Below, one piece after another: positions 733 through 56,200 of a DNA stretch of 64,000 bases. The notes under the pieces were generated by a model. It searched no databases, was not told the origin of the DNA, and saw nothing but the letters and a program-made list of their open reading frames with translations. The stretch is from Octopus sinensis (lineage: Eukaryota): the NCBI RefSeq assembly GCF_006345805.1, contig NC_042998.1:5394001-5458000 (forward strand), given 5' to 3'. Made by a program: the position numbers and the translations under genes. Each line of letters starts with the position of its first letter. Within the stretch, counting starts at the first letter, position 1.

Positions 733-1169
733 AAGGCGGCGAGCTAGCAGAAACCTTAGCACGCCGGGCGAAATGCTAGCGGTATTTCGTCTGCTGCTAC
801 GTTCTGAGTTCAAATTCCGCCGATGGTAAATTTTTTTTTAAATCGTTCGACTTTGCCTTTCATCCTTTCGGGGTCGATTAAATAAGTACCAGTTACGCAC
901 TGCGGTCAATATAATCGACTTAATTCGTTTGTCTGTCCTTGTTTGTCCCTTCTGTGTTTAGCCCCTCGTGAGTAGTAAAGAAATAGGTATTTCGACTGCC
1001 GTTACGTTCTGAGTTCAAATTCCGCCGAGGTCGACTTTGCCTTTCATACTTTCGAGGTCGATTAAATAAGTACCAGTTACGCACTGAGGTCGATGTAATC
1101 GACTTAATCCGTTCGTCTGTCCTTGTTTGTCCTTTGTGTGTTTAGCCCCTTGTGGGTAGTAAAGAAATA
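733..1169 (+). mobile_element. SINE family A, young tail, 1.7-mer form
   Basis: tRNA-like head (GGCGGCGAGCTAGCAGAA ... GAGTTCAAATTCC), central GCCTTTCATCCTTTCGGGGTCGAT domain, tail ending GTAAAGAAATA. TSD AGGTATAATCTTAA at 717-730 and 1170-1183. Confidence 0.9.
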
Positions 1170-1972
1170 AGGTATAATCTTAAGCTTCTGTTAACTTGAT
1201 GTATTTAGTTCGATTCTTTCCACTCTTATAAATAATTTGCAACACAGACTTAACTCATGATTCAGATTTATAAGAGTTTGTAAGGGAGAATAGAACCGGT
1301 CATGTGACGTGCATAACTTTCTCAATGCTTTTCCAATGCAAACAAAACTGATACGGTAGCAATTTAGATTCAAAATTTACCTTCTAATTTCCCTTTCATC
1401 ATTTCTGTAAGAGTACCTTATCGTAACTCATTTCTTTAGTTTTAGTATCGATTGCTTTTTTGTTGTTTTTGTTTTGATAAAATATACTGCAAAGGTAAGT
1501 TATGGTTAATTACATCGATATCAGTTTGTAATTAGTACTCATTTCATCAATAGGATCAAATAAAACAGTAAACCTGGCAGATTTTCGAAACGAGAATGAG
1601 AACTGACCCATACAACTTAAATCGTGAAGCTTTCTACAGCTGTCTTTTCTGCCTATCAGCCATAAGCAAAAGAGTGAATCAATACATTAGTACAAGATAA
1701 CAGATTTGTAAAGGATGGGTGCAACTGATCGTATCAATTATAATATATTTCCAAAGCTAATTTTCTCAGCCTCAGATGAATGTCATTGAAGGTCGACCCT
1801 AGCAGGATTTCAGCTTGGAACACTGAAGTTTAAAATCAAAAACTATGTACTCTTGCTGCTAAATTGGCACTTTTCCTTTGCTCTGATATTGACATCTTAC
1901 ACAGATATACTATTTGAAACTTGTAGAAAAGGAGAGATGCAAACGATTTAATATTCATTATTTAGTCAAAGT

Positions 1973-11887: not shown

Positions 11888-12233
11888 CAACAAGAGAACT
11901 CAGAGAACGCAAGCCTACGCCAAGATAACACCAACATCCTCTCAGGATTAGCAAGAAATGATTTTTTAAATGAGAATATCTGAAATAAACTCGACTGCTC
12001 TCACAAACGAGAATAATAAAAATGAACCCGACCACTCTCAAAAAAATTAAGTAAAAAAGAGGAAATATATTCCAGAATTCTTGTCCGTCACTGGATTGAT
12101 CCTAAAATCTAATCAGTTCGTGCCAGTCACGAGGACAAACATCCCTGAAAATTTCATCCGAATCCATCCAGCGGTTCTTGAGAAATCTTGTTCGCGGACA
12201 AAGAAACAAACAACAAACACGACTAAGGCAGAG

Positions 12234-12237
<4 letters not shown>
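11888..12237 (+). mobile_element. Helentron-like non-autonomous element (HINE/DINE style)
   Basis: Begins ACAAGAGAACTCAGAGAACGCAAGCCTACGCCAAG, contains AAATTTCATCCGAATCCATCCAGCGGTTCTTGAG followed by a CAAA-type repeat, and sits between TAA tracts. Assignment rests on recalled architecture. Confidence 0.55.
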
Positions 12238-12301
<64 letters not shown>

Positions 12302-12302
<1 letters not shown>

Positions 12303-12640
12303 GTCTCTAAAAGAAATGGAGAAACTTTCAAAATACAAAGACCTGGAAATGGAGGTAACCAGAATGTGGAATCTAAAAACAGAAACAATTCTTATCATAG
12401 TAGGTGCATTAGGCATGATAAAAAATATTCAGACAAATACATAACAAAAACACCAGGACTTACAAACACATATAACATACAGAAAATTGCACTACTAGGC
12501 ACTGCACACATCCTACGCAGAACACTTTCCATACAATAACCATCAGAGCATCGCAACAAATCACAGCACATACCTAAGGCACACAGAGCTGCGCTCGGTA
12601 GTGAAGTGAAAGCACTCTATAAAAATAAAACTACTGAATG
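12302..12640 (+). mobile_element. R4/Dong-like non-LTR retrotransposon 3' fragment
   Basis: Translates EKLSKYKDLEMEVTRMWNLKTETILIIVGALG and, after a frameshift, IQKIALLGTAHILRRTL* (C-terminus of the restriction-like endonuclease domain). (TAA)n on both sides. Confidence 0.88.
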
Positions 12641-14699: not shown

Positions 14700-16500
14700 G
14701 TTGAAAGCCCCTCGCACCGTACACTAGCAGGCTTCTGGAGTCATCAGGAGAAAAAGTGCCGGTTTCAGAGCCTTCTTCTCCACTGTAACCTGGATAAAAT
14801 TCATGATGGTATTTACTTTATGTTGAATTAGGCCTTGCGACAGCAATCATTAATTCGTAATGTTTCCAATGAATCCTTTACATCTATCTTCGATTGGATA
14901 GTGTTCTGCTTTCTAGTTTGATCTTTACAATTCTAGAGGAGCTGTTCATAACGGTGTCCATGTTTTCTTCATGAGAAACCGTTATCTCTTCCAAGTTTAC
15001 TTTCTTATTTCTTTACTGCCCAAAAGAGGTTAAACGTAGAGGGGACGAACAAAGGGATTAAATCGATTACATCGACCCCAGTGCTTAAATGGTACTTATT
15101 TAATCGACCCCGAAGGGATGAATGGCTAAGTCGACCTCGGCGGAATTTGAACTCAGAACGTAGCGGCAGACGTAATACATATTTCTTTACTACCCACAAG
15201 GGGCTAAACACAGAGAAGACAAACAAGGACAGACAAACGGATTAAGTCGATTACATCGACCCCAGTGCGTAACTGGTACTTATTTAATCGACCCCGAAAG
15301 ATGAAAGGTAAAGTCGACCTCGGCGGAATTTGAACTCAGAACGTAGCGGCAGACGAAATACCGCTAAGCATTTTGCCCGGCATGCTAACATTTCTGCCAC
15401 AGCTTGCCGCCTTTCTTTTACTTTCTTTCTCTCACACCGTATGATATCTAATTTCTTTGTAACTAGAATGGTGAAGAATCCTTGGCATTCCGATAAATCT
15501 GCAACCACCTTCCAGTAGGCGTTCCACTTTCCATCGTTCGCAGGAAGTTTCTTCTCATGATGGATCTGCTGTGCAGGACGCACAAAAATAATGAAATTTA
15601 TGGCTGGTTTCTTCTGAGGTTTGTTGCCAGTTTTATTCAGCGCAAGTTGATTCTATGCAGTATTGAAGAGGATCTTAATGACTAGACTGTGGCTCCAGAT
15701 ATATCTATTCAACGCCAGTAAGCAGTTGGAAATAAAATGCTTCACTGTTCTTACTTGCCTGCATCTGCATTTATCACTCTTTCATACGTACCATCCCACC
15801 AATTTGTAGGCAACAGAAAGGCATCGGAGGATGAACGAATCAAAAAACTTCGTCGTGATGTACTCATTCCCGCTTCCGTGCTACTCCCATCTTGTCATTT
15901 GTCCTTGTTGAGAGCATTGAATCAAATGAAGCTCTTTTCTCTCTGATTCCCTTTCCTTGACTGTTGTTAACAACAAATCTGCGTTTACTCAGCATCATAC
16001 TTGAGAATAGTCTGAGCCGATCTGAGCCAAACACACGTCACTTCAGGTCAATTTGTGTGGCACCCACAAAATATCGGTGTTTATTTGAAGACAGGATGTC
16101 ATCTGTTCCTGCTTTTGTTTTCCCCTTCCTGGCTGTTTTTACATCCGTGGATTACTCCTTATTTCTCTATCCTTCACCTTTCTTAGCATCACCACTGTTC
16201 GTACCTTCCCAACTTCATATTTTTGATGATTGCCGTCAGTTGTAATTGCATTGAGACAACTTTACAATAAAGAGCTGAGCTGTTCGTTATCCGATGTAGA
16301 TCTAGCCATTTCCTAATGAACACATTGCACTTTTGCACAACAATTTGAACCTGTGACAGTGCCACCTCGTATAGTAATAGTGGCCACCAAAGGCATCGAT
16401 GTAAGCCAATCTGAAGACACCATATATATACTTGTCTAGTGATTTGAATCATCAATCGCTTTTAGTCCAATCTTTGCTTGCTCCATAATCTGCATCCCGC
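14700..16500 (-). mobile_element. Decayed Hero-like (R2 superfamily, RLE) retrotransposon 3' half
   Basis: IWCLQIGLHRCLWWPLLLYEVALSQV...FIRKWLDLHRITNSSALY (16189-16455), QGQMTRWE (~15890-15910) and EITVSHEENM (~14960-14990, cf. ELTVPWEE). Interrupted by a SINE at 15006-15412. Confidence 0.75.
15006..15412 (-). mobile_element. SINE family A, young tail, 1.7-mer form
   Basis: Two units joined near 15180. Candidate TSD TTTACTTTCT at 14996-15005 and 15417-15426. Confidence 0.9.
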
Positions 16501-16604: not shown

Positions 16605-16823
16605 TATATATATAAATGAAAGATTGGAGTTGAACGACGATTTAACAAAATTCCTTATTCTCGACATATGTTTTGAAGACTGCATATTCTTAATTCCGAA
16701 GGAATAAAGGGTGCACCCTTTATTCCTACGGAATTAAGAATATGCAGTCTTCGAAACATATGTCGAGAATAAAGGAATTTTGTTAAATCGTCGTTCAACT
16801 CCATTCTTTCATTTATATATATA
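16605..16823. repeat. Near-perfect spacer-less palindrome (~109-bp arms) in (TA)n
   Basis: Axis AAAGGGTG|CACCCTTT at 16713/16714. Three mismatches and one indel between arms. Confidence 0.95.
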
Positions 16824-16962
16824 AAAAAAAAACACAAATTTCCACACGAAAGCACGTGATTTCTGCCCTTGGCATGTAGTTTCAACCGTGTTTTCTGATG
16901 TGAATTTGCTACCCGGGTATCGGTTAACCGAATTATCCATACTAGGGTAATTCATTCAACTA

Positions 16963-17002
<40 letters not shown>

Positions 17003-17006
<4 letters not shown>

Positions 17007-17440
17007 ATCCAAACAAGAAAGCAGAAAAAAACACAACAACGCGAGGACGTGGAACAAATATAGTATTATTGGACGCTCAGAAAAGAAGGAAAGAAGGAGG
17101 GTTTAACGTTTCGAGCGGAGCTCTTCGTCGGAAACATAGGAGAAGGAAAGATCCAGAGAAGGGAAGACAGGGAAAAAATCGCCAACGGTACACACGCGGT
17201 CACATTATATATATATATATATATATATAGTTAATCCAAACAAGAAAGCACAAAAAAACACAACAACGCGAGGACGTATAACAAATATAGTATTATTGGA
17301 CGCTCAGAAAAGAAGGAAAGAAGGAGGGTTTAACGTTTCGAGCGGAGCTCTTCGTCGGAAACATAGGAGAAGGAAAGATCCAGAGAAGGGAAGACAGAGG
17401 AAAAAAATCGGCAACGGTACACATCGGGTCACATTTTGAA
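17003..17440 (-). mobile_element. Two tandem ~205-bp TA-embedded elements with hammerhead-like motif
   Basis: Near-identical copies 17003-17205 and 17230-17440, flanked and separated by (TA)n. Confidence 0.85.
17101..17135 (-). ncRNA. Minimal type-I hammerhead-ribozyme-like motif (second copy 17328-17362)
   Basis: GUUU-CCGACGA-A-GAGC(UCC)GCUC-GAAACGUU-AAAC: stem I GUUU/AAAC, stem II GAGC/GCUC, palindromic ACGU in place of stem III. The core has U4 to C. Confidence 0.6.
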
Positions 17441-17454
17441 TATATATATATATA

Positions 17455-17628
17455 AGGAGAGTTCACGAGAAATAAAACAAAAGACGAAGACAGGTGGTGT
17501 AGAAAACAAACGGATGTATTAATATAACGCTCAGGAATTGAAAAAGTATTTTACGTTTCGGGCCTACGCTCTTCTACAGAAAGGGACGCAGAAAAAACAA
17601 GGAGAGAAAAAATGTGTTTAGTGGCTAC
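17455..17628 (-). mobile_element. TA-embedded ~175-bp element, second hammerhead-like subfamily
   Basis: Homologous to 33921-34097 in opposite orientation. Motif UUU-CUGUAGA-A-GAGC(GUAG)GCCC-GAAACGUA-AAA at 17549-17583. Confidence 0.75.
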
Positions 17629-17699
17629 GTATGAACTATTGATTCCTGCCAAACCAATTCATTAGTTACAGTTTATTGTATTATTTACTTTTTCCCTTT

Positions 17700-33920: not shown

Positions 33921-34097
33921 TCGTTAGCTCCTACACGCATTTTTTTCTCTCCTTGTTTTTTCTGTGTATCTTTCTGTCGAAGAGCATAGGCTCGAAACGT
34001 AAAAGACTTTTTCTATTCTTGAGCGCTATACTAATACATTTGTTTGTTTGTACTCCACCTGCCTTCGTCTTTTGTTTATTTTCGTAAACTTTCCCTT
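33921..34097 (+). mobile_element. TA-embedded ~175-bp element with hammerhead-like motif
   Basis: UCUUU-CUGUCGA-A-GAGC(AUAG)GCUC-GAAACGUA-AAAGA at 33969-34006. Homologous to 17455-17628. (TA)n flanks. Confidence 0.75.
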
Positions 34098-34157: not shown

Positions 34158-34204
<47 letters not shown>

Positions 34205-34220
<16 letters not shown>

Positions 34221-34384
34221 ATATACATACATGAGAAACCGGTTATTTCTACAAAAATAATGTCACAATACACAAAAGTTTATATAATTTTCCTAACATG
34301 ATTTTAATATATTTTTAACCAATTAATACAAATCTTCTGTAGTTTTTACATTCTAACCACGTACTTTCACGTACCAACTCTCGC

Positions 34385-34435
<51 letters not shown>

Positions 34436-34920
34436 TAAATTCCTCACAATATGAGGGTCTCTTAAAGTCAAAACTACCATAACAAATACGCTGACTGCTT
34501 GATAAATTTTTTAAAGATTTTATCCTATTTTAAAATTATATATATATGTGTGTGGTGTGTGTGTATGTATGTATGTATATATACATACATGAGAAACCGG
34601 TTATTTCTACAAAAATAATGTCACAATACACAAAAGTTTATATAATTTTCCTAACATGATTTTAATATATTTTTAACCAATTAATACAAATCTTCTGTAG
34701 TTTTTACATTCTAACCACGTACTTTCACGTACCAACTCTCGCACCCTATATATATATATATATATTATATATATATATATATATAATATATACATAAATT
34801 CCTCACAATATGAGGGTCTCTTAAAGTCAAAACTACCATAACAAATACGCTGACTGCTTGATAAATTTTTTAAAGATTTTATCCTATTTTAAAATTATAT
34901 ATATATGTGTGTGTGTGTGT
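34205..34920. repeat. Tandem duplication, period 358 bp
   Basis: ATGAGAAACCGG at 34231 and 34589. Non-microsatellite parts appear identical. Confidence 0.92.
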
Positions 34921-36038
34921 GTGTATGTATGTATATATATATATAATATATACATTGATATATATGTATATATGTATATATAATATATATATATATGAAT
35001 ATATATAATATATATTTGTATATATATATATATATATAATATATATATTAATATAATATATATGTATATATAATATATATATATATATATAGAGTAAAAG
35101 AGTAAAAGGGTAAAATAGAGAGTATATTTATATACATTCTTACACTCACACACATGCACACATACACATACACACACATACACACACACACACACATATA
35201 TATATATGCATTTGCATGTATAAGCATGCATGTTGTGTATGTATGTATGTATGTATGTATGTATGTATGCATTGATAGGTATATGTCTGTCTGTTTGTGC
35301 GTATGCATGTATTTATGTGTGTAATTACTCCAAGTTCAACTTTTGAGATATTTTAACTTCTCTCACAAAACAATAATGAATAACCTCTAATTGAAAGAGG
35401 TGATGATAGATTTCTAAATTACTGCCAATTGTAGTCGCGATGGCATCCATATTTAAGTCAAATCCTTTCCCCTACTAGGCTTTCCAGCAGAGAAGGCCTG
35501 CTTGTCTATCGAATAGTTTCAGTAGTTACATTTCCTTTCTGTCATTTCGATGAAATTAGCTTCTTTACTATTATAGGCAAGTTGATTTAATTAACTTTTA
35601 CACTCACTTTACGTTCTTCATTTTGTACTATTCATTAGAACCTGAGTTGTTTGTTTTACTTTGCTGTGTGTTTTTATTATTATTATCTTTTTTTTCGGTT
35701 TTTCATTTTCTTTCCTTCTGATAACATTTCCAAAATACTTTTTGGTGTCGCTTTTCAGCTGAATTCAATCTCACTTAGAGTTAGTTATCAATCATTTAGC
35801 TTTCTTGTTTAACGGTAGGTAATTACGAGAGAAGAGCGCTTTCAAAGATTTCACAAAAACTATTATTGGACTCGCCCAGAAGATAACGAGTTGAGTGAGA
35901 GAATGGTGACCTCGGTCTCAATATGATGACCTCACTATTTTAGATATTATTAAATCTCTTTGCAAATCATACATATGTATGTATACATACACATATACAT
36001 GTATGCATACGAGTGTACATACATATATATGCATATAC

Positions 36039-37573: not shown

Positions 37574-38448
37574 GAAAAAATAATGAACACTTATATATTC
37601 CCTATTAATTTACGATAAGTTAATTATTTTTAATGAAAACGTTGAATAGACGTGGGAGAGAGAGAGAGTGAGAGAGAGAGAGAAAAGAGAGAGAGAGAGC
37701 GTTGCAAGGGGAAAAGACGAAAATGACAGAATAGGCAGTCAAAAATTTCAAATGGAAGGAATTGAACGATAAAGGTTATGAATGAAGTGTGCGTGTGAGA
37801 GAGAGGAAGATGAAGAACGAAAAGAGAAAGATGTTGGAATGAAAACAAACATCAATATATTATTTCTGACAATACTCGATAGATATAGTGTTAAAGAAAT
37901 TACAAATGTTTCTCACCATTATCTAAACAAAACAACTTTGGTAATCACTTATTTTTAATGAAAACATTTTAACAAACCGGCAGAGAGAGCGAGAAAGACA
38001 ACAGGCGGACATATGCCGTACTAAATATAAGTTTCTTTTGTGAATAAAATATATTTTGCGATTCAAACGTGTATTTTAATTTTCAATTAGAAAACGTGCA
38101 TGAAGAACTATTCTGATTAAAACTTGAAGTTTGAAGATTTTTTTAGTATTTTGTAAACAAGGGAAACTTTCATAACTTCTTTCTTTTAATAAGAGTTACA
38201 TCGTCCAACTAATTGATAAACAGCTTCCTCCATTATAGTATAGAAGTCATGTGACTCATTTACGTCACTGCAAATATATTTGTGTTTGTATGTAACAATG
38301 CAGTGATATGAGTGAACGAGCGTGTTTTACACACTTAAATATTATCAGTCGGGAATAAAAGGATAACAAAGTCAGTAGGTCTCATTACATTCCGAGGTCA
38401 ATGTGTTCAGGTTCACTTTGTCTTTTATTATCTCCTTATAGATAAAAT

Positions 38449-38865
38449 AAGGCGGCGAGCTGGCAGAAACGTTAGTACACCGGGCGAAATGCGTAGCGGT
38501 ATTTCGTCTGCCGTTATGTTCTGAGTTCAAATTCCGCCGAGGTTGACTTTGCCTTTCATCCTTTCGGGGTCGATAAATTAAGTACCAGTTACGCACTGGG
38601 GTCGATGTAATCGACTTAATACCTATGTCTGTCCTTGTTTGTCCCCTCTATGTTTAGCCCCTTGTGGGTAATAAAGAAATAGGTATTTCGTCTGCCGTTA
38701 CGTTCTGAGTTCAAATTCTGCCGAGGTCGACTTTGCCTTTCATCCTTTCGGGGTCGATAAATTAAGTACCAGTAACGCACTGAGGTCAATGTAATCGACT
38801 TAATCCGTTAGTCTGTCCTTGTTTGTCCCCTCTGTGTTTAGCCCCTCGTGGGTAGTAAAGAAATA
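38449..38865 (+). mobile_element. SINE family A, young tail, 1.7-mer form
   Basis: Junction AAAGAAATA|GGTATTTCG at 38681/38682. Confidence 0.9.
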
Positions 38866-39343
38866 TATTCTCTTCCTATACATAAGATAAATACTAGTTC
38901 TGTGTCTACCATGCACTTCTGTAGACACAATCCTGTACTATTGTTGATGTCATAGACTGTGCACCTGTTGAGATACTAGTCATATAATAATGTCCGTTCA
39001 ATGAACTGATTCACGACCGTGAAAAATTACATCATTGCTCTAATACAGCAAATATTTGCTATTACCATCACACCGCTAAAGACTGAGGGCTTGAAATTAG
39101 CCCACGTTACATTCTTTGAAATAATAACACGAAATACTTTTCAAATTTTCTTTTTGTTTCTCATTGCATGACTTCCTCATCTCATTATTCCAAGTTGCAT
39201 GCACCTAGTGCATGAGTAAAAGCATTCGTTTTTCTGCTAGTTTTATATTAAACCAAAACTATAAACGAGATGTCTTAGTCGATACTCCTAAACAAAATGC
39301 TACGTGTATATATCTGAATAACAACATAAGAGAGAAGTAATAA

Positions 39344-40180
39344 ATATTGGTCACAAAGGCACAAAGTCAGCAGTTTCAGGGTGGGGGAGAAGTTGATCAC
39401 ATCGACTCCAGTGTTTAGCTGGTATTTATTTTATCGATCCTGACGGAATGAAAGGTACAGTCGACCCCGGCAGCATTTGAACTCAGAACATGAAGTCGGA
39501 GAAAATGCTGGGAAGCATTTTTCTCCGGTGCGGTAACGATTCTTATTTCTTTATTGCCCACAAGGGGCTAAACATAAAGGGGACAAACAAGGACAGAAAA
39601 TCGGATTAAGTCGATTACATCGATCCCAGTGCGCAATTAGTAGTTAATTTATCGACCCCGAAAGGATGAAAAGCAAAGTCGACCTCGGTGGAATGGAACT
39701 CAGAACGTAACGGCAGACGAAATACCTATTACTTTACTACACACAAGGGGCTAAACACAGAGAGAACAAACAAGGACAGACAAAGGGATTAAGTCGATTA
39801 TATCGACCCCAATACGTAACTGGTACTTACTTTATCGACCCCGAAAGGATGAAAGGCAAATTCAACCTCGGTGGAATTTGAACTCAGAACGTAACGGCAG
39901 ATGAAATACCACTAAGCATTTCGCCCGACGTGCTAAAGTTTCTGCCAGCTTGCTGCCTTATATTGGTCACAAATTCTGGCACAAAGCCAGCAGTTTCAGG
40001 GTAGGGGATAAGTTGATCACATCGACTCCAGTGTTTAGCTGGTATTTATTTTATGGACCCTGACGGAATGAAGGGTACAGTCGACACCGGCAGCATTTGA
40101 ACTCAGAACATGAAGTCGGAGAAAATGCTGGGAAGCATTTTTTCCCCGGTGCGGTAACGATTCTGCCCACTCGTCGCCTT
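39344..40180 (-). mobile_element. Young family A 1.7-mer (39544-39959) inserted in an old family A SINE with ~200-bp flanking duplication
   Basis: 39344-39543 repeats at 39960-40164. The old head is completed at 40165-40180. Confidence 0.88.
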
Positions 40181-49479: not shown

Positions 49480-50224
49480 ATGTTTGACTTTTGCTTTTCA
49501 TTTGCACAAGCTGGCTCCAAGTCTCACCCAGAGACCTCAAGAGACAACAAGTTGGAAGTTTATGTTGGGGTTATGCCTAGGGTGCCATATATTTGGTTTT
49601 GTACTTAGCGTTGCACTAGTGAATGCCTAAAAAAACCATACGAAAATTATGTTTGTTTTAAAACTTGAGATTACATAGAAAATATTTTGCGTAGGATATG
49701 AGCAGTTCCCATGAGCACTATCTTTTGAATTTCTGACATTTTGGGGTTTCCTGGTTTCTGAGTTAGGTAGCAATCAGCCCCTTTTGCTATCATTCCCAGG
49801 GCACCTATGACAACAGGTATTGTTTTAGTCTTCAGCTTCCACATTTTGCTGATTTCTATTTCCAGATCTTTATATTTGCTCAGTTTCTGGTAGGTCTTGA
49901 CAGATACGTTTATATCGATTGGGACAGTCATATCAATGAGGAGGCATGTTTTTTGTCTGAAGTCTTTTACTATGATGGCTGGCCTATTCGCGTCTATCTT
50001 TCTGTCAGTTTGAATGGTGAAGTTCCAGAGGAGTGAGATGTGGTCCTTTTCAAGCACTGGAGGTGGTTTGTGTTCCCACCAGTTTTTATCATGGGGCAAG
50101 TCCAGGCTTTTGCAAATTACCCAGTGAATATATTGTGCAGCTCTATCATGCCTGTTGAGATACTCTGTAGGCGCTAGAAGACTGCACTTGGAGACAACAT
50201 GATCAATGGTTTCATTTTGTTTTA

Positions 50225-50225
<1 letters not shown>
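49480..50225 (-). mobile_element. R4/Dong-like 3' fragment with open ~185-codon frame (part of CCHC knuckle, RHD, RLE domain) and 3' UTR
   Basis: ETIDHVVSKC...RHD...LLWNFTIQTDRKIDANRPAII...IDMTVP...KLSKYKDLE...PVVIGALG...VLMGTAHILRKIFSM* (49671-50225). The N-terminus of the listed ORF is a microsatellite artefact. Confidence 0.92.
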
Positions 50226-50290
<65 letters not shown>

Positions 50291-50334
50291 TATTATTATT
50301 ATTATCATTATTATTAATATTATTATTAATAAAA

Positions 50335-50436
50335 GGGCGGTGAGCTGGCAGAAACGCTAGCACGCTGGGCGAAATGCGTAGCCGTATTTCGTCTACCGTT
50401 ACGTTTTTCTTCTTCTTCTTCTTCTTATTATTATTA

Positions 50437-50475
<39 letters not shown>

Positions 50476-54619: not shown

Positions 54620-56200
54620 TATAATAACTATTATGTTTTTCATTAGTTCTTGATAGATGTTCTTTGCCCAATCTTTTAAATGAGTTATTCACATCTGCCG
54701 GGTGGATGATCTCTATAACAGCGCATAACGTTTGATCCCGTTTCCACAATAATATCTGACTTGTGTCCTTACTTTAGGTCGCTGCTTTTACTGGAATATT
54801 TCACCAGTATTCTTTATCTTTAAATGTGCGTTTAATTTCTGGTTTGCTTTTGATATAGCCATCGGAACAATCCTGCCTATGTATACCGATATAGATATCT
54901 TAGCGATAATTCTATACATCATGGGAAGCTAGTGTCTTGAGGATATTTTTGAACAGCTGATGATATGGGTGATATCCTCCGTACTGGTATGACACAAGTG
55001 ACATTTTTTATCACAATGCGGAGGTCAAAAGGTATCATTATCTTCCTTACCGATTGGGTATTTAATAAATTCCTCCTGCTCTTGAACAAAGGCAGTAACC
55101 CTCAACATAAGATGTAATGTATTTATCGCAGTTCCAGGAGAGGCTAATACGTCTATCAATACTGTTCGTATTCTCTCGCTTGTGGAATATGTATGCATAC
55201 ATAGCTTTCTGCTAGTATGATGTATATTTCTCTCCCAAGTCTCTGCTTCAGTAAGTCAGATCAGCCGTCTGATGTTATTCCTTGTCTTTGCTGTTGAACA
55301 TATACGTGATATATTTGTTTCTTTCATAACACTTCAGTAGTCACTAAATGTCACAATGTGGAAAAAGACTGTTTAGATCGATCTTATATCCTTCCAGTGC
55401 AAAAGGATGGGATGTGAGTAATGTGTGGACCACACAGTCCAACCACTTTATGTGTTTTCTGTCAAGTTTACGGAACAGGGTATCCAGCTTCGTTAGCGTA
55501 AAGGGGGCCAAAACCTGTGCTACGCCACTGTGACACTGCTTCCATCGTTCCATCTAACATATTTTAATTTCTTTATTGCCCAGTCGACCTCGGCGGAATT
55601 TGAACTCAGAACGTAACGACAGACGAAATACCTATTTCTTTACTACCCACAAGGAGCTAAACACAGAGGGGACAAACAAGAACAGACAAACGGATTAAGT
55701 CAATTACATCGATCCCAGTGCGTTATTGGTACTTAATTTATCGACCCCGAAAGGATGAAAGGCAAAGTCGACCTCGGCAGAATTTGAACTCAGAACGTAA
55801 CGGCAGACGAAATACGGCTAAGCATTTCGCCCGGCGTGCTAACGTTTCTGCCAGTTCACCGCCTTAAACCATCTAACAGATTCTGTTAGTTCATTTCTGA
55901 TGAGGAAGTCACTAGTCGATGTTAGTATCTTTCTAGTTCTGATATCCAAGCTGCACACTTATTCAAGACTCCAGTCTAGTACCTCATATATTGGAACTAG
56001 CATCGAATTTGTTGAATGCAGACAGCTCTGACTTCCATACCTCTCGTAGTCTGCTGAAATATTTTATCCCTTTATCACTCTAGCTTTAATCGCAGCCCCG
56101 ACATATTCAATATTCTCAGTTCTGAGCTATTTGTAGGAATCATTACTCATGAATGAGAAAATAGAAAGACCACTCGTATCTACATTTCCTGTCTGGCCAA
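54620..56200 (-). mobile_element. Possible highly decayed non-LTR RT fragment
   Basis: Weak matches LPMMYRIIAK (~54900-54935) and DVNNSF (~54680-54700). Interrupted by a SINE. Confidence 0.35.
55565..55866 (-). mobile_element. SINE family A, young 1.7-mer with internal deletion
   Basis: Junction near 55633. Candidate TSD CCATCTAACA at 55550-55559 and 55869-55878. Confidence 0.85.

What the first reader, a model, noticed from the sequence alone, without database searches (positions are those of the whole stretch)
16966..17630. Tandem hammerhead-bearing mini-elements nested in (TA)n: candidate retrozyme or Penelope-dependent system
Seen directly: three ~175-210 bp non-coding units, all on the minus strand and each preceded by (TA)n (the first two flanked on both sides). 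Each has stem I, a C(C/U)GNNGA core, A, a GAGC-loop-GC(U/C)C stem II and GAAACGU(U/A). Stem I differs between subfamilies yet still pairs (GUUU/AAAC versus UCUUU/AAAGA in the 33969 copy). Established: Penelope-like elements and metazoan non-LTR retrozymes carry minimal type-I hammerheads with palindromic stem III that can act as dimers. Inference: a read-through transcript would place two motifs 227 nt apart, allowing dimeric cleavage and release of a unit-length, possibly circularisable RNA that is reinserted at TA microsatellites.
Basis: partly seen in the sequence, partly recalled or inferred. Interest (0 to 1): 0.75.

Follow-up and report, generated by a model that had tools for sequence, protein, structure and literature searches.

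The report
Penelope retrotransposon tail stubs with hammerheads
These three short pieces are the tail ends of two very common Penelope-type jumping genes that likely landed one after another in the same TA repeat; each carries the family's minimal hammerhead RNA motif with an altered core whose cutting is untested, so this is ordinary in kind and not a new circular-RNA element.

Summary
The motifs are real: three minimal type I hammerheads (minus strand, two 227 nt apart) and a fourth at 33969 (plus strand); none in 30 shuffles. The retrozyme reading fails. The units (family A twice, family B once) are the 3' ends, i.e. pLTRs, of two sister Penelope-like retrotransposons with a Neptune-type linker. 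In the same genome they sit downstream of RT + GIY-YIG ORFs, including intact pLTR-ORF-pLTR copies (1008 and 1009 aa). Copies are dispersed monomers (at least 12,610 A ends) ending at (TA)n. The two A copies are not each other's closest relatives, and no other same-family head-to-tail pair occurred among 226 copies. Cores are lineage-fixed variants (A: U4C; B: A6U), also in the intact elements. Most copies keep an uncut hammerhead, and 5' ends show no peak at the cut site. Of interest: 36 of 50 A copies are 180-237 nt long, and the pLTR/5'UTR junction encodes a short TA tract. This suggests run-off copies of the transcript's 5' pLTR primed by TA pairing. The scan noted the B core variant before on other DNA (e1-9559914).

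The parts
16965..17002 (.). (TA)19 target microsatellite, 3' flank of A1
   Evidence: TRF; sequence
17003..17207 (-). A1: solo 3' end (pLTR stub) of PLE family A, ending ...GGATTAAC at the TA tract
   Evidence: same unit terminates ORF-bearing copies L250, L214, L297, L299
17101..17135 (-). Minimal type I hammerhead motif of A1: core CCGACGA (U4C), extra A, 4-bp stem II, AACGUU; predicted cut between 17105 and 17104
   Evidence: alignment
17208..17229 (.). (TA)11 between A2's 3' end and A1's 5' end
17230..17441 (-). A2: solo 3' end (pLTR stub) of PLE family A; starts at ATTCAAAA, the commonest 5' start among copies
17328..17362 (-). Minimal hammerhead motif of A2, identical to that of A1; predicted cut between 17332 and 17331
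17442..17455 (.). TA tract between B's 3' end and A2's 5' end
17456..17627 (-). B: solo 3' end (pLTR stub) of sister PLE family B, slightly 5'-truncated
   Evidence: same unit follows the C-terminal ORF part in 12 of 30 loci
17549..17582 (-). Minimal hammerhead motif of B: core CUGUAGA (A6U), stem II with one mismatch private to this copy, stem I 3 bp
33923..34095 (+). C: dispersed solo copy of a B-type subfamily (85% to B), motif at 33969-34006, core CUGUCGA, TA tract at its 3' end

Best explanation
The three units are short 3'-terminal copies (pLTR stubs) of two sister Penelope-like retrotransposons, which were likely inserted in separate target-primed events into one TA microsatellite, and their hammerhead is the ordinary pLTR motif, likely uncut in the RNAs that were copied. 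Shown: each unit is the end of an RT + CX4CxxC + GIY-YIG element and also forms the upstream pLTR of full-length copies; all copies share one 3' end that abuts (TA)n. Shown: in full-length copies the same boundary is followed by a short encoded TA tract (5-10 nt) and then the 5' UTR. Inferred mechanism: the element's endonuclease nicks (TA)n; the nicked end pairs with the TA tract in the RNA; reverse transcription starts there, inside the RNA. The RNA holds this site twice. Starting at the downstream pLTR gives long, variably truncated copies (a minority). Starting at the upstream pLTR lets the enzyme run off the transcript's 5' end after about 200 nt, which gives the abundant same-sized stubs. 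Each insertion leaves TA tracts that are targets again, so stubs sometimes stack up as here.
For: ORF-UTR-unit-(TA)n continuity in L250, L214 (A) and L228 (B'). Of 20 regions fetched around protein hits, 9 of 10 A-type and 10 of 10 B-type have the unit downstream in the same sense, and 6 of 20 have it on both sides. L291 (1008 aa) and L301 (1009 aa) are open, with pLTR pairs 98.7% and 96% identical. The two proteins are 67% identical. Pfam RVT_1 passes the cut-off for L301; GIY-YIG is below the cut-off; homologues carry PF00078, PF26215, PF28514 and often PF01541. Window-type B follows an ORF end in 12 of 30 UTR-selected loci. Exact 3'-end+TA counts are 12,610 (A) and 3,841 (one B subfamily), with control 0. 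Of 50 A copies chosen by 3' end only, 36 are 180-237 nt, 5 exceed 300 nt, and 43 show the core. B 5' ends have their mode at the A of (T/G)CAGT, with 4 of 29 running further. Encoded TA tract at the pLTR/5'UTR junction in L291, L292, L295, L301, L302, L304, L305, L102. A1's nearest copy is L016 (4 differences), A2's is L020 (6), and A1-A2 differ at 8 sites; their 5' ends differ. Literature: internal initiation near the pLTR-ORF junction, and hammerhead mutants that still insert in vitro (PMC11167929); transcript starts in the upstream pLTR (PMC2377424).
Against: No transcript 5' end was mapped; the initiator reading rests on a recalled consensus (TCAKTY), and for A only 2 longer copies (L014, L295) show CATTC. 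A1 and A2 share one uncommon variant (6 of 92 other copies), which fits a local duplication as well. The GCG/GCA 5' subtype of the window's A copies is common among solos (about 10-13 of 20 unbiased) but absent from 27 copies that run into the usual UTR (that set was largely selected by a pattern of the other subtype), so solos may also copy themselves. In the one PLE studied in vitro, initiation was at a site NOT homologous to the cut DNA (PMC11167929). 5' ends are sparser upstream of the cut site than just downstream (18 at -2..+5 against 14 at -3..-26), so a cleaved minority is not excluded. No empty-site allele was seen.
Confidence: 0.78

Rival explanations
1. Solo stubs have become non-autonomous, SINE-like masters: an internal promoter transcribes a solo from its own 5' end into the flanking (TA)n, and the PLE protein copies it in trans, giving more stubs of the same size. 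This can add to the best explanation rather than replace it.
For: Sharp size peak (36 of 50); solos outnumber long copies about ten to one; the GCG/GCA subtype is common in solos and was not seen among 27 long copies with the usual UTR; pLTRs can act in trans in rotifers (PMC3846280, passage); non-autonomous PLE derivatives are known (PMC8557442).
Against: Window-type units at 89-92% identity follow or precede ORFs (L250, L297, L299, L295); GCG/GCA units with upstream UTR-like sequence exist (L014, L152, L212); no solo-specific 5' sequence was found.
Confidence: 0.25
2. The stubs are ordinary 5'-truncated copies started at the downstream pLTR, and the 200-nt peak comes from a reverse-transcriptase stall or from TA microhomology rather than from the transcript's 5' end.
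For: 5' ends are ragged over about 30 nt and favour TA or A matches; truncations run from 20 nt to more than 1 kb; single minimal hammerheads were earlier ascribed to truncated PLEs (PMC4209133).
Against: A wall of similar size in two families with different upstream sequence; copies of 240-3000 nt are rare (5 of 50); B's wall falls on CAGT.
Confidence: 0.2
3. A1 and A2 arose from one insertion, by local duplication through the TA tracts or by a template jump during a single event.
For: Same orientation, same 5' subtype, one shared uncommon variant; local duplicates exist elsewhere (L382/L383).
Against: 8 differences between them, each being closer to dispersed copies; different 5' ends; the neighbouring B copy shows that independent stacking happened at this very tract; 3 other adjacent pairs are all mixed-subfamily.
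Confidence: 0.2
4. One reading: a retrozyme whose tandem is transcribed, cleaves as a dimer, releases a 227-nt circle and reinserts.
For: Motifs 227 nt apart with palindromic AACGUU, so a dimer is geometrically possible; metazoan retrozymes derive from pLTRs (bioRxiv 10.64898/2026.07.22.740005), and a dimer would meet that preprint's loose definition if its descriptor accepted the U4C core.
Against: Only this locus among 226 copies has a same-family head-to-tail pair, and no copy is permuted or multimeric; a circle would carry the TA spacer, and copies would be arrays; cores are non-canonical; dimer fold +21.5 kcal/mol; minimal PLE hammerheads cleave weakly even as dimers (PMC4209133); 8 of 9 predicted Xenopus dimers did not cleave.
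Confidence: 0.04

Closest known systems
Minimal type I hammerheads in pLTRs of metazoan Penelope-like elements (Cervera and de la Pena 2014, PMC4209133; parts 1-2 of 4 read)
   Same: [quoted passage not shown]
   Different: Core changes U4C (family A) and A6U (family B) are fixed in whole lineages; the text read reports only the U3-A8 core covariation; helix II is 4 bp, not 7-8; its supplements were not seen
Neptune (or Nematis) EN+ PLEs (Craig et al. 2021, PMC8557442; introduction and passages read)
   Same: Single ORF, RT with DKG motif, CX2-5CxxC linker (here CX4CxxC), C-terminal GIY-YIG with CCHH, pLTRs in partial tandems, microsatellite insertion bias
   Different: Clade not placed on a tree with labelled references; long low-complexity 3' UTRs (0.5-3 kb); very strong excess of about 200-nt solos
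PAc Poseidon of Anolis, internal initiation (Frangieh et al. 2024, PMC11167929; parts 1-2 of 4 read)
   Same: Reverse transcription inferred to start inside the RNA near the pLTR/ORF junction; AT-rich target; hammerhead cleavage not needed for insertion
   Different: PAc starts at a site not homologous to the target and leaves a 30-40 bp tail; here the boundary carries a TA tract matching the target, and no second end (tail) was noticed
Athena and Coprina EN- PLEs (as summarised in PMC8557442)
   Same: Short target-matching repeat next to the hammerhead at the element end, thought to assist priming
   Different: Those lack the endonuclease and attach to telomeres; these have GIY-YIG and use internal (TA)n
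Metazoan non-LTR retrozymes (PMC7229834, passages; bioRxiv 10.64898/2026.07.22.740005, parts 1-3 of 5)
   Same: Unit size about 200 nt, type I hammerhead, relation to pLTRs
   Different: Retrozymes are tandem arrays, in the 2020 paper with canonical hammerheads and abundant circles; these are monomers continuous with coding PLEs and carry minimal variant motifs

Membership tests
EN+ Penelope-like element (pLTR fragment) | Continuous with an ORF encoding RT and C-terminal GIY-YIG endonuclease | tested here: met
   (GIY-YIG below the Pfam cut-off; CCHH and YIG/YVG motifs visible in the translation)
EN+ Penelope-like element (pLTR fragment) | Direct pLTR repeats from partial tandems flanking the ORF | tested here: met
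   L291, L292, L301, L302, L304, L305; L304 and L305 pLTRs include the ORF end
EN+ Penelope-like element (pLTR fragment) | Hammerhead motif inside the pLTR | tested here: met
EN+ Penelope-like element (pLTR fragment) | Fixed 3' end with variable 5' truncation | tested here: met
Neptune clade | CX2-5CxxC linker before the endonuclease | tested here: met
   CSRSRCNTC in L291 and CSRPRCRTC in L301; shared with Nematis
Neptune clade | Phylogenetic placement with reference Neptune RTs | not testable with these tools
   No labelled reference set (Repbase) on hand; homologues carry no clade names
Minimal type I hammerhead | Helices I and II, extra nucleotide after A9, palindromic helix III | tested here: met
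   88.9% of cells paired against 15-41% for slid controls
Minimal type I hammerhead | Canonical core CUGANGA | tested here: not met
   A: CCGACGA in 71 of 98 copies, CUGACGA in 12; B: CUGUAGA in 58 of 105; B': CUGUUGA in 21 of 25
Minimal type I hammerhead | Compensatory stem changes | tested here: inconclusive
   One pair (G-C in A, C-G in B) among 11, one evolutionary event; 18 of 500 shuffles reach the score; stem I has a U-U mismatch in the intact A' copies
Minimal type I hammerhead | Self-cleavage (as dimer or protein-assisted) | not testable with these tools
   Genomic proxy gave no peak at the cut site
Non-LTR retrozyme | Tandem arrays of the unit as the usual form | tested here: not met
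   9 of 226 copies have a neighbour within 100 bp; only the window has a same-family head-to-tail pair
Non-LTR retrozyme | No autonomous coding body | tested here: not met
Non-LTR retrozyme | Circular RNA intermediate | not testable with these tools
   Only contigs were available, none on record as RNA

The most novel reading that the evidence does not exclude
Tens of thousands of about 200-nt stubs record a PLE priming mechanism: the nicked (TA)n target pairs with a short TA tract encoded at the pLTR/5'UTR junction, and the enzyme runs off at the transcription start, much as EN- PLEs use telomeric repeats. Two sister lineages kept transposing after fixing different core changes (U4C, A6U) while keeping the rest of the hammerhead, so the motif would be maintained for slow, protein-assisted cutting or for a non-catalytic role.
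Probability: 0.45. Interest if true: 0.5.

Novelty: new member of a known kind. Interest (0 to 1): 0.3.

Why it matters
As a class this is known: PLE pLTRs carry minimal hammerheads and most genomic motifs are stubs. It matters as a caution (two stacked stubs look like a retrozyme dimer) and as a test system. Intact members of both families exist, with naturally altered hammerhead cores and a target-matching TA tract at the inferred priming site. They allow direct tests of two open points: what the PLE hammerhead is for, and how linker-bearing PLEs find and prime on microsatellites.

Tried and rejected
Rfam scan: no hammerhead model matched; all 101 matches were microsatellite-driven miRNA or snoRNA hits. 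Pfam GIY-YIG search of the genome: 147 matches; none of the 30 loci fetched ended in A or B, the A/B copies in them being nested insertions; an unrelated B'-parent turned up by chance in the wider stretch L228. Pfam on six ORF fragments of L250, L214 and L228 gave nothing; the intact ORFs did. Cut-site footprint, hand-tallied from the first 100 rows of each search: A 18 of 32 loci start at -2..+5 against 14 at -3..-26; B 10 of 28 at +1..+6 after dropping 2 local duplicates; but the downstream control gave 5 of 32 at -1..+5 and 27 at +6..+26 (p=0.31). So there is no peak, and a TA dinucleotide at A's cut site confounds it; rejected as evidence of cleavage. Cap-derived G at B 5' ends: rejected, the G is templated in some long copies. 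Monomer folding z-scores were 0.0 to -1.7, uninformative. Expression: no RNA holder listed; contigs showed only presence of the families, and no piece spanned the locus, so no empty site could be read. Copy counts were not de-duplicated and were replaced. B lengths were inflated by flanking TA in one reference and were not used. Lunse et al. 2017 (dimer cleavage of PLE hammerhead variants) could not be read. Six literature searches listed no paper on these families, on run-off solo pLTRs or on TA-tract priming; Repbase, Dfam and Arkhipova 2006 were not available, so this is weak evidence of absence.

Full report
Observation. The window is animal DNA rich in microsatellites (G000, 2.7 Gb; earlier notes call it an octopus, which no call of mine establishes). 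A relaxed descriptor found four minimal type I hammerhead motifs in 64 kb and none in 30 block shuffles. A1 (17003-17207), A2 (17230-17441) and B (17456-17627) are on the minus strand; C (33923-34095) is on the plus strand. A1 and A2 are 95% identical with motifs 227 nt apart; B and C are 85% identical; A and B are only about 67% alike around the motif. None of the cores is canonical: A has CCGACGA (U4C), B CUGUAGA and C CUGUCGA (A6U). Rfam has no matching model.

Both units are high-copy dispersed repeats. DNA searches gave 1,482 (A) and 3,123 (B) first-look candidates. Exact matches to the 3' end plus TA number 12,610 for A and 3,841 for one B subfamily, with reversed controls at 0. In 60 evenly spaced 10-kb stretches (599.9 kb) I counted 2 A and 10 B-type copies, about 54,000 in all (95% range 28,000-95,000). 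The 3' end is fixed and abuts TA repeats in 25 of 28 A and 26 of 29 B copies (background 7%); 5' flanks are TA-rich in 21 of 28 and 17 of 29 (background 14%). These 57 copies were the best matches to the window, so they favour full-size stubs.

The units are ends of coding elements. A pattern at A's far 5' edge showed many copies running on into a shared upstream sequence of up to 1.2 kb. In L250 and L214 that sequence is a CA-rich 3' UTR of about 1.6 kb behind an ORF with RT, a CX4CxxC linker and a GIY-YIG domain; L228 shows the same for a B-type unit. Searching with the L250 protein gave 121 matches. Of 20 regions fetched around them, chosen for long open frames, 9 of 10 A-type and 10 of 10 B-type carry the unit downstream in sense, and 6 carry it on both sides. 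L291 and L292 (1008 aa) and L301 (1009 aa) are open, with pLTR pairs 96-99% identical; the A and B proteins are 67% identical. These intact copies belong to sister subfamilies (A', B', 71-77% to the window units); the window's own subtypes (83-92%) are linked to broken ORFs in L250, L252, L297, L299 and in 12 of 30 B-UTR loci. Pfam: RVT_1 over the cut-off for L301, GIY-YIG below it; 2,931 homologues, the best carrying RT and PLE-type domains. The linker marks Neptune or Nematis (PMC8557442); I could not place the clade on a tree.

The tandem is incidental. Among 226 distinct copies with flanks, 9 have a neighbour within 100 bp: the window's three and three mixed pairs, two of them tail-to-tail on a shared TA tract. 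A1 and A2 differ at 8 sites, and each has closer relatives elsewhere among 92 copies; they share one variant found in 6 others, so a local duplication is not excluded. The nested dimer fold is possible on paper but lies 21.5 kcal/mol above the ensemble of the read-through RNA (nearest-neighbour model, no positive control). Published minimal PLE hammerheads cleave weakly even as dimers (PMC4209133), and 8 of 9 predicted Xenopus dimers did not cleave (bioRxiv 10.64898/2026.07.22.740005).

The hammerhead. Helices are kept across 9 distinct natural sequences (88.9% of cells paired; slid controls 15-41%), with a single compensatory pair between A and B. The core variants are family traits: CCGACGA in 71 of 98 A copies and 8 of 9 A', with a more divergent sister group keeping CUGACGA (12 of 98, linked diagnostic sites); CUGUAGA in 58 of 105 B and CUGUUGA in 21 of 25 B'. 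In the unbiased A set the U4 form is commoner (11 CUGACGA against 20 CCGACGA of 50). Published passages say that U4C lowers activity in vitro yet allows viroid infectivity, and that change at A6 gives low activity (PMC3088659); for the Anolis PLE, cleavage needs the protein and is not needed for insertion (PMC11167929). Here 43 of 50 A copies retain the region of the core, so they were copied from uncut or religated RNA. A genomic footprint of cleavage was sought and not found: 5' ends are sparser upstream of the cut site but show no peak at it.

How the stubs likely arise. Of 50 A copies chosen only by their 3' end (the first 50 on contig C1; 40 more could not be fetched), 36 measure 180-237 nt, 5 exceed 300 nt and 9 are shorter, two of these being mis-measured full stubs. 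B copies stop at or just inside the A of (T/G)CAGT, 4 of 29 running further; many A copies start at ATTCAAAA, preceded by C in the two longer copies of that subtype. Both resemble an initiator (consensus recalled). In full-length copies the upstream pLTR is followed by a short encoded TA tract and then a conserved 5' UTR (8 junctions). Penelope transcripts start in the upstream pLTR (PMC2377424), and PLE reverse transcription starts inside the RNA near the pLTR/ORF junction (PMC11167929). I infer that the nicked (TA)n pairs with this tract and that copying from the upstream site runs off the RNA's 5' end, giving stubs of fixed size. This is inference; self-propagating solos and plain truncation remain open.

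Comparison and verdict. Membership in the PLE pLTR class is met on every feature tested; retrozyme membership fails on tandem organisation and on the lack of a coding body. The scan has noted true tandem hammerhead families elsewhere in this genome and the A6U family before; those notes are unchecked except where I repeated the test. Supplements of PMC4209133 and of the preprint, and Lunse et al. 2017, were not seen and may already list these core variants. PMC13282606 (passages) reports recently active Penelope families in an octopus and does not mention ribozymes in its main text. Verdict: new members of a known kind; interest 0.3.

Noticed in passing
window 16605-16823: Near-perfect palindrome of about 220 bp (96% between arms) flanked by TA tracts, MITE-like; partial relatives in 2 of 60 random stretches
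   Followed up: partly
window 49671-50438 (-) and 12051-12539 (+): C-terminal fragments of a LINE with a restriction-like endonuclease next to (TAA)n tracts; R4/Dong-like by recall; no informative Pfam hit
   Followed up: partly
window 16840-16960: Another high-copy repeat directly beside the TA tract, by contig depth
   Followed up: no
window 752-1235, 14991-15413, 38448-38931, 39358-40142, 55582-55875 and others: Dispersed SINE-like family with 184-bp tandem units (families D12, D13, D16, D17)
   Followed up: no
window 34188-34943: 358-bp local tandem duplication, 98% identical, next to copy C
   Followed up: no
L152:1-300: An A-type unit with canonical CUGACGA core is joined through a short TGGATT match to the middle of the 3' UTR, giving a unit-UTR-unit structure without ORF; a template switch or a secondary initiation site
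   Followed up: no
L292:7555-8055: A B' stub sits 10 bp upstream of the 5' pLTR of an intact A' element, a second case of cross-family stacking
   Followed up: partly
L225, L226, L227, L228: Other PLE families with open 775-883 aa ORFs; in the 30 GIY-YIG loci no hammerhead of this type was noticed within 0.75 kb of the ORF end (output partly cut)
   Followed up: no
G000:C1:13744285-13744500 and C1:38594808-38594955: Inverted (head-to-head) short copies of A and of B, the PLE-typical inverted arrangement
   Followed up: no
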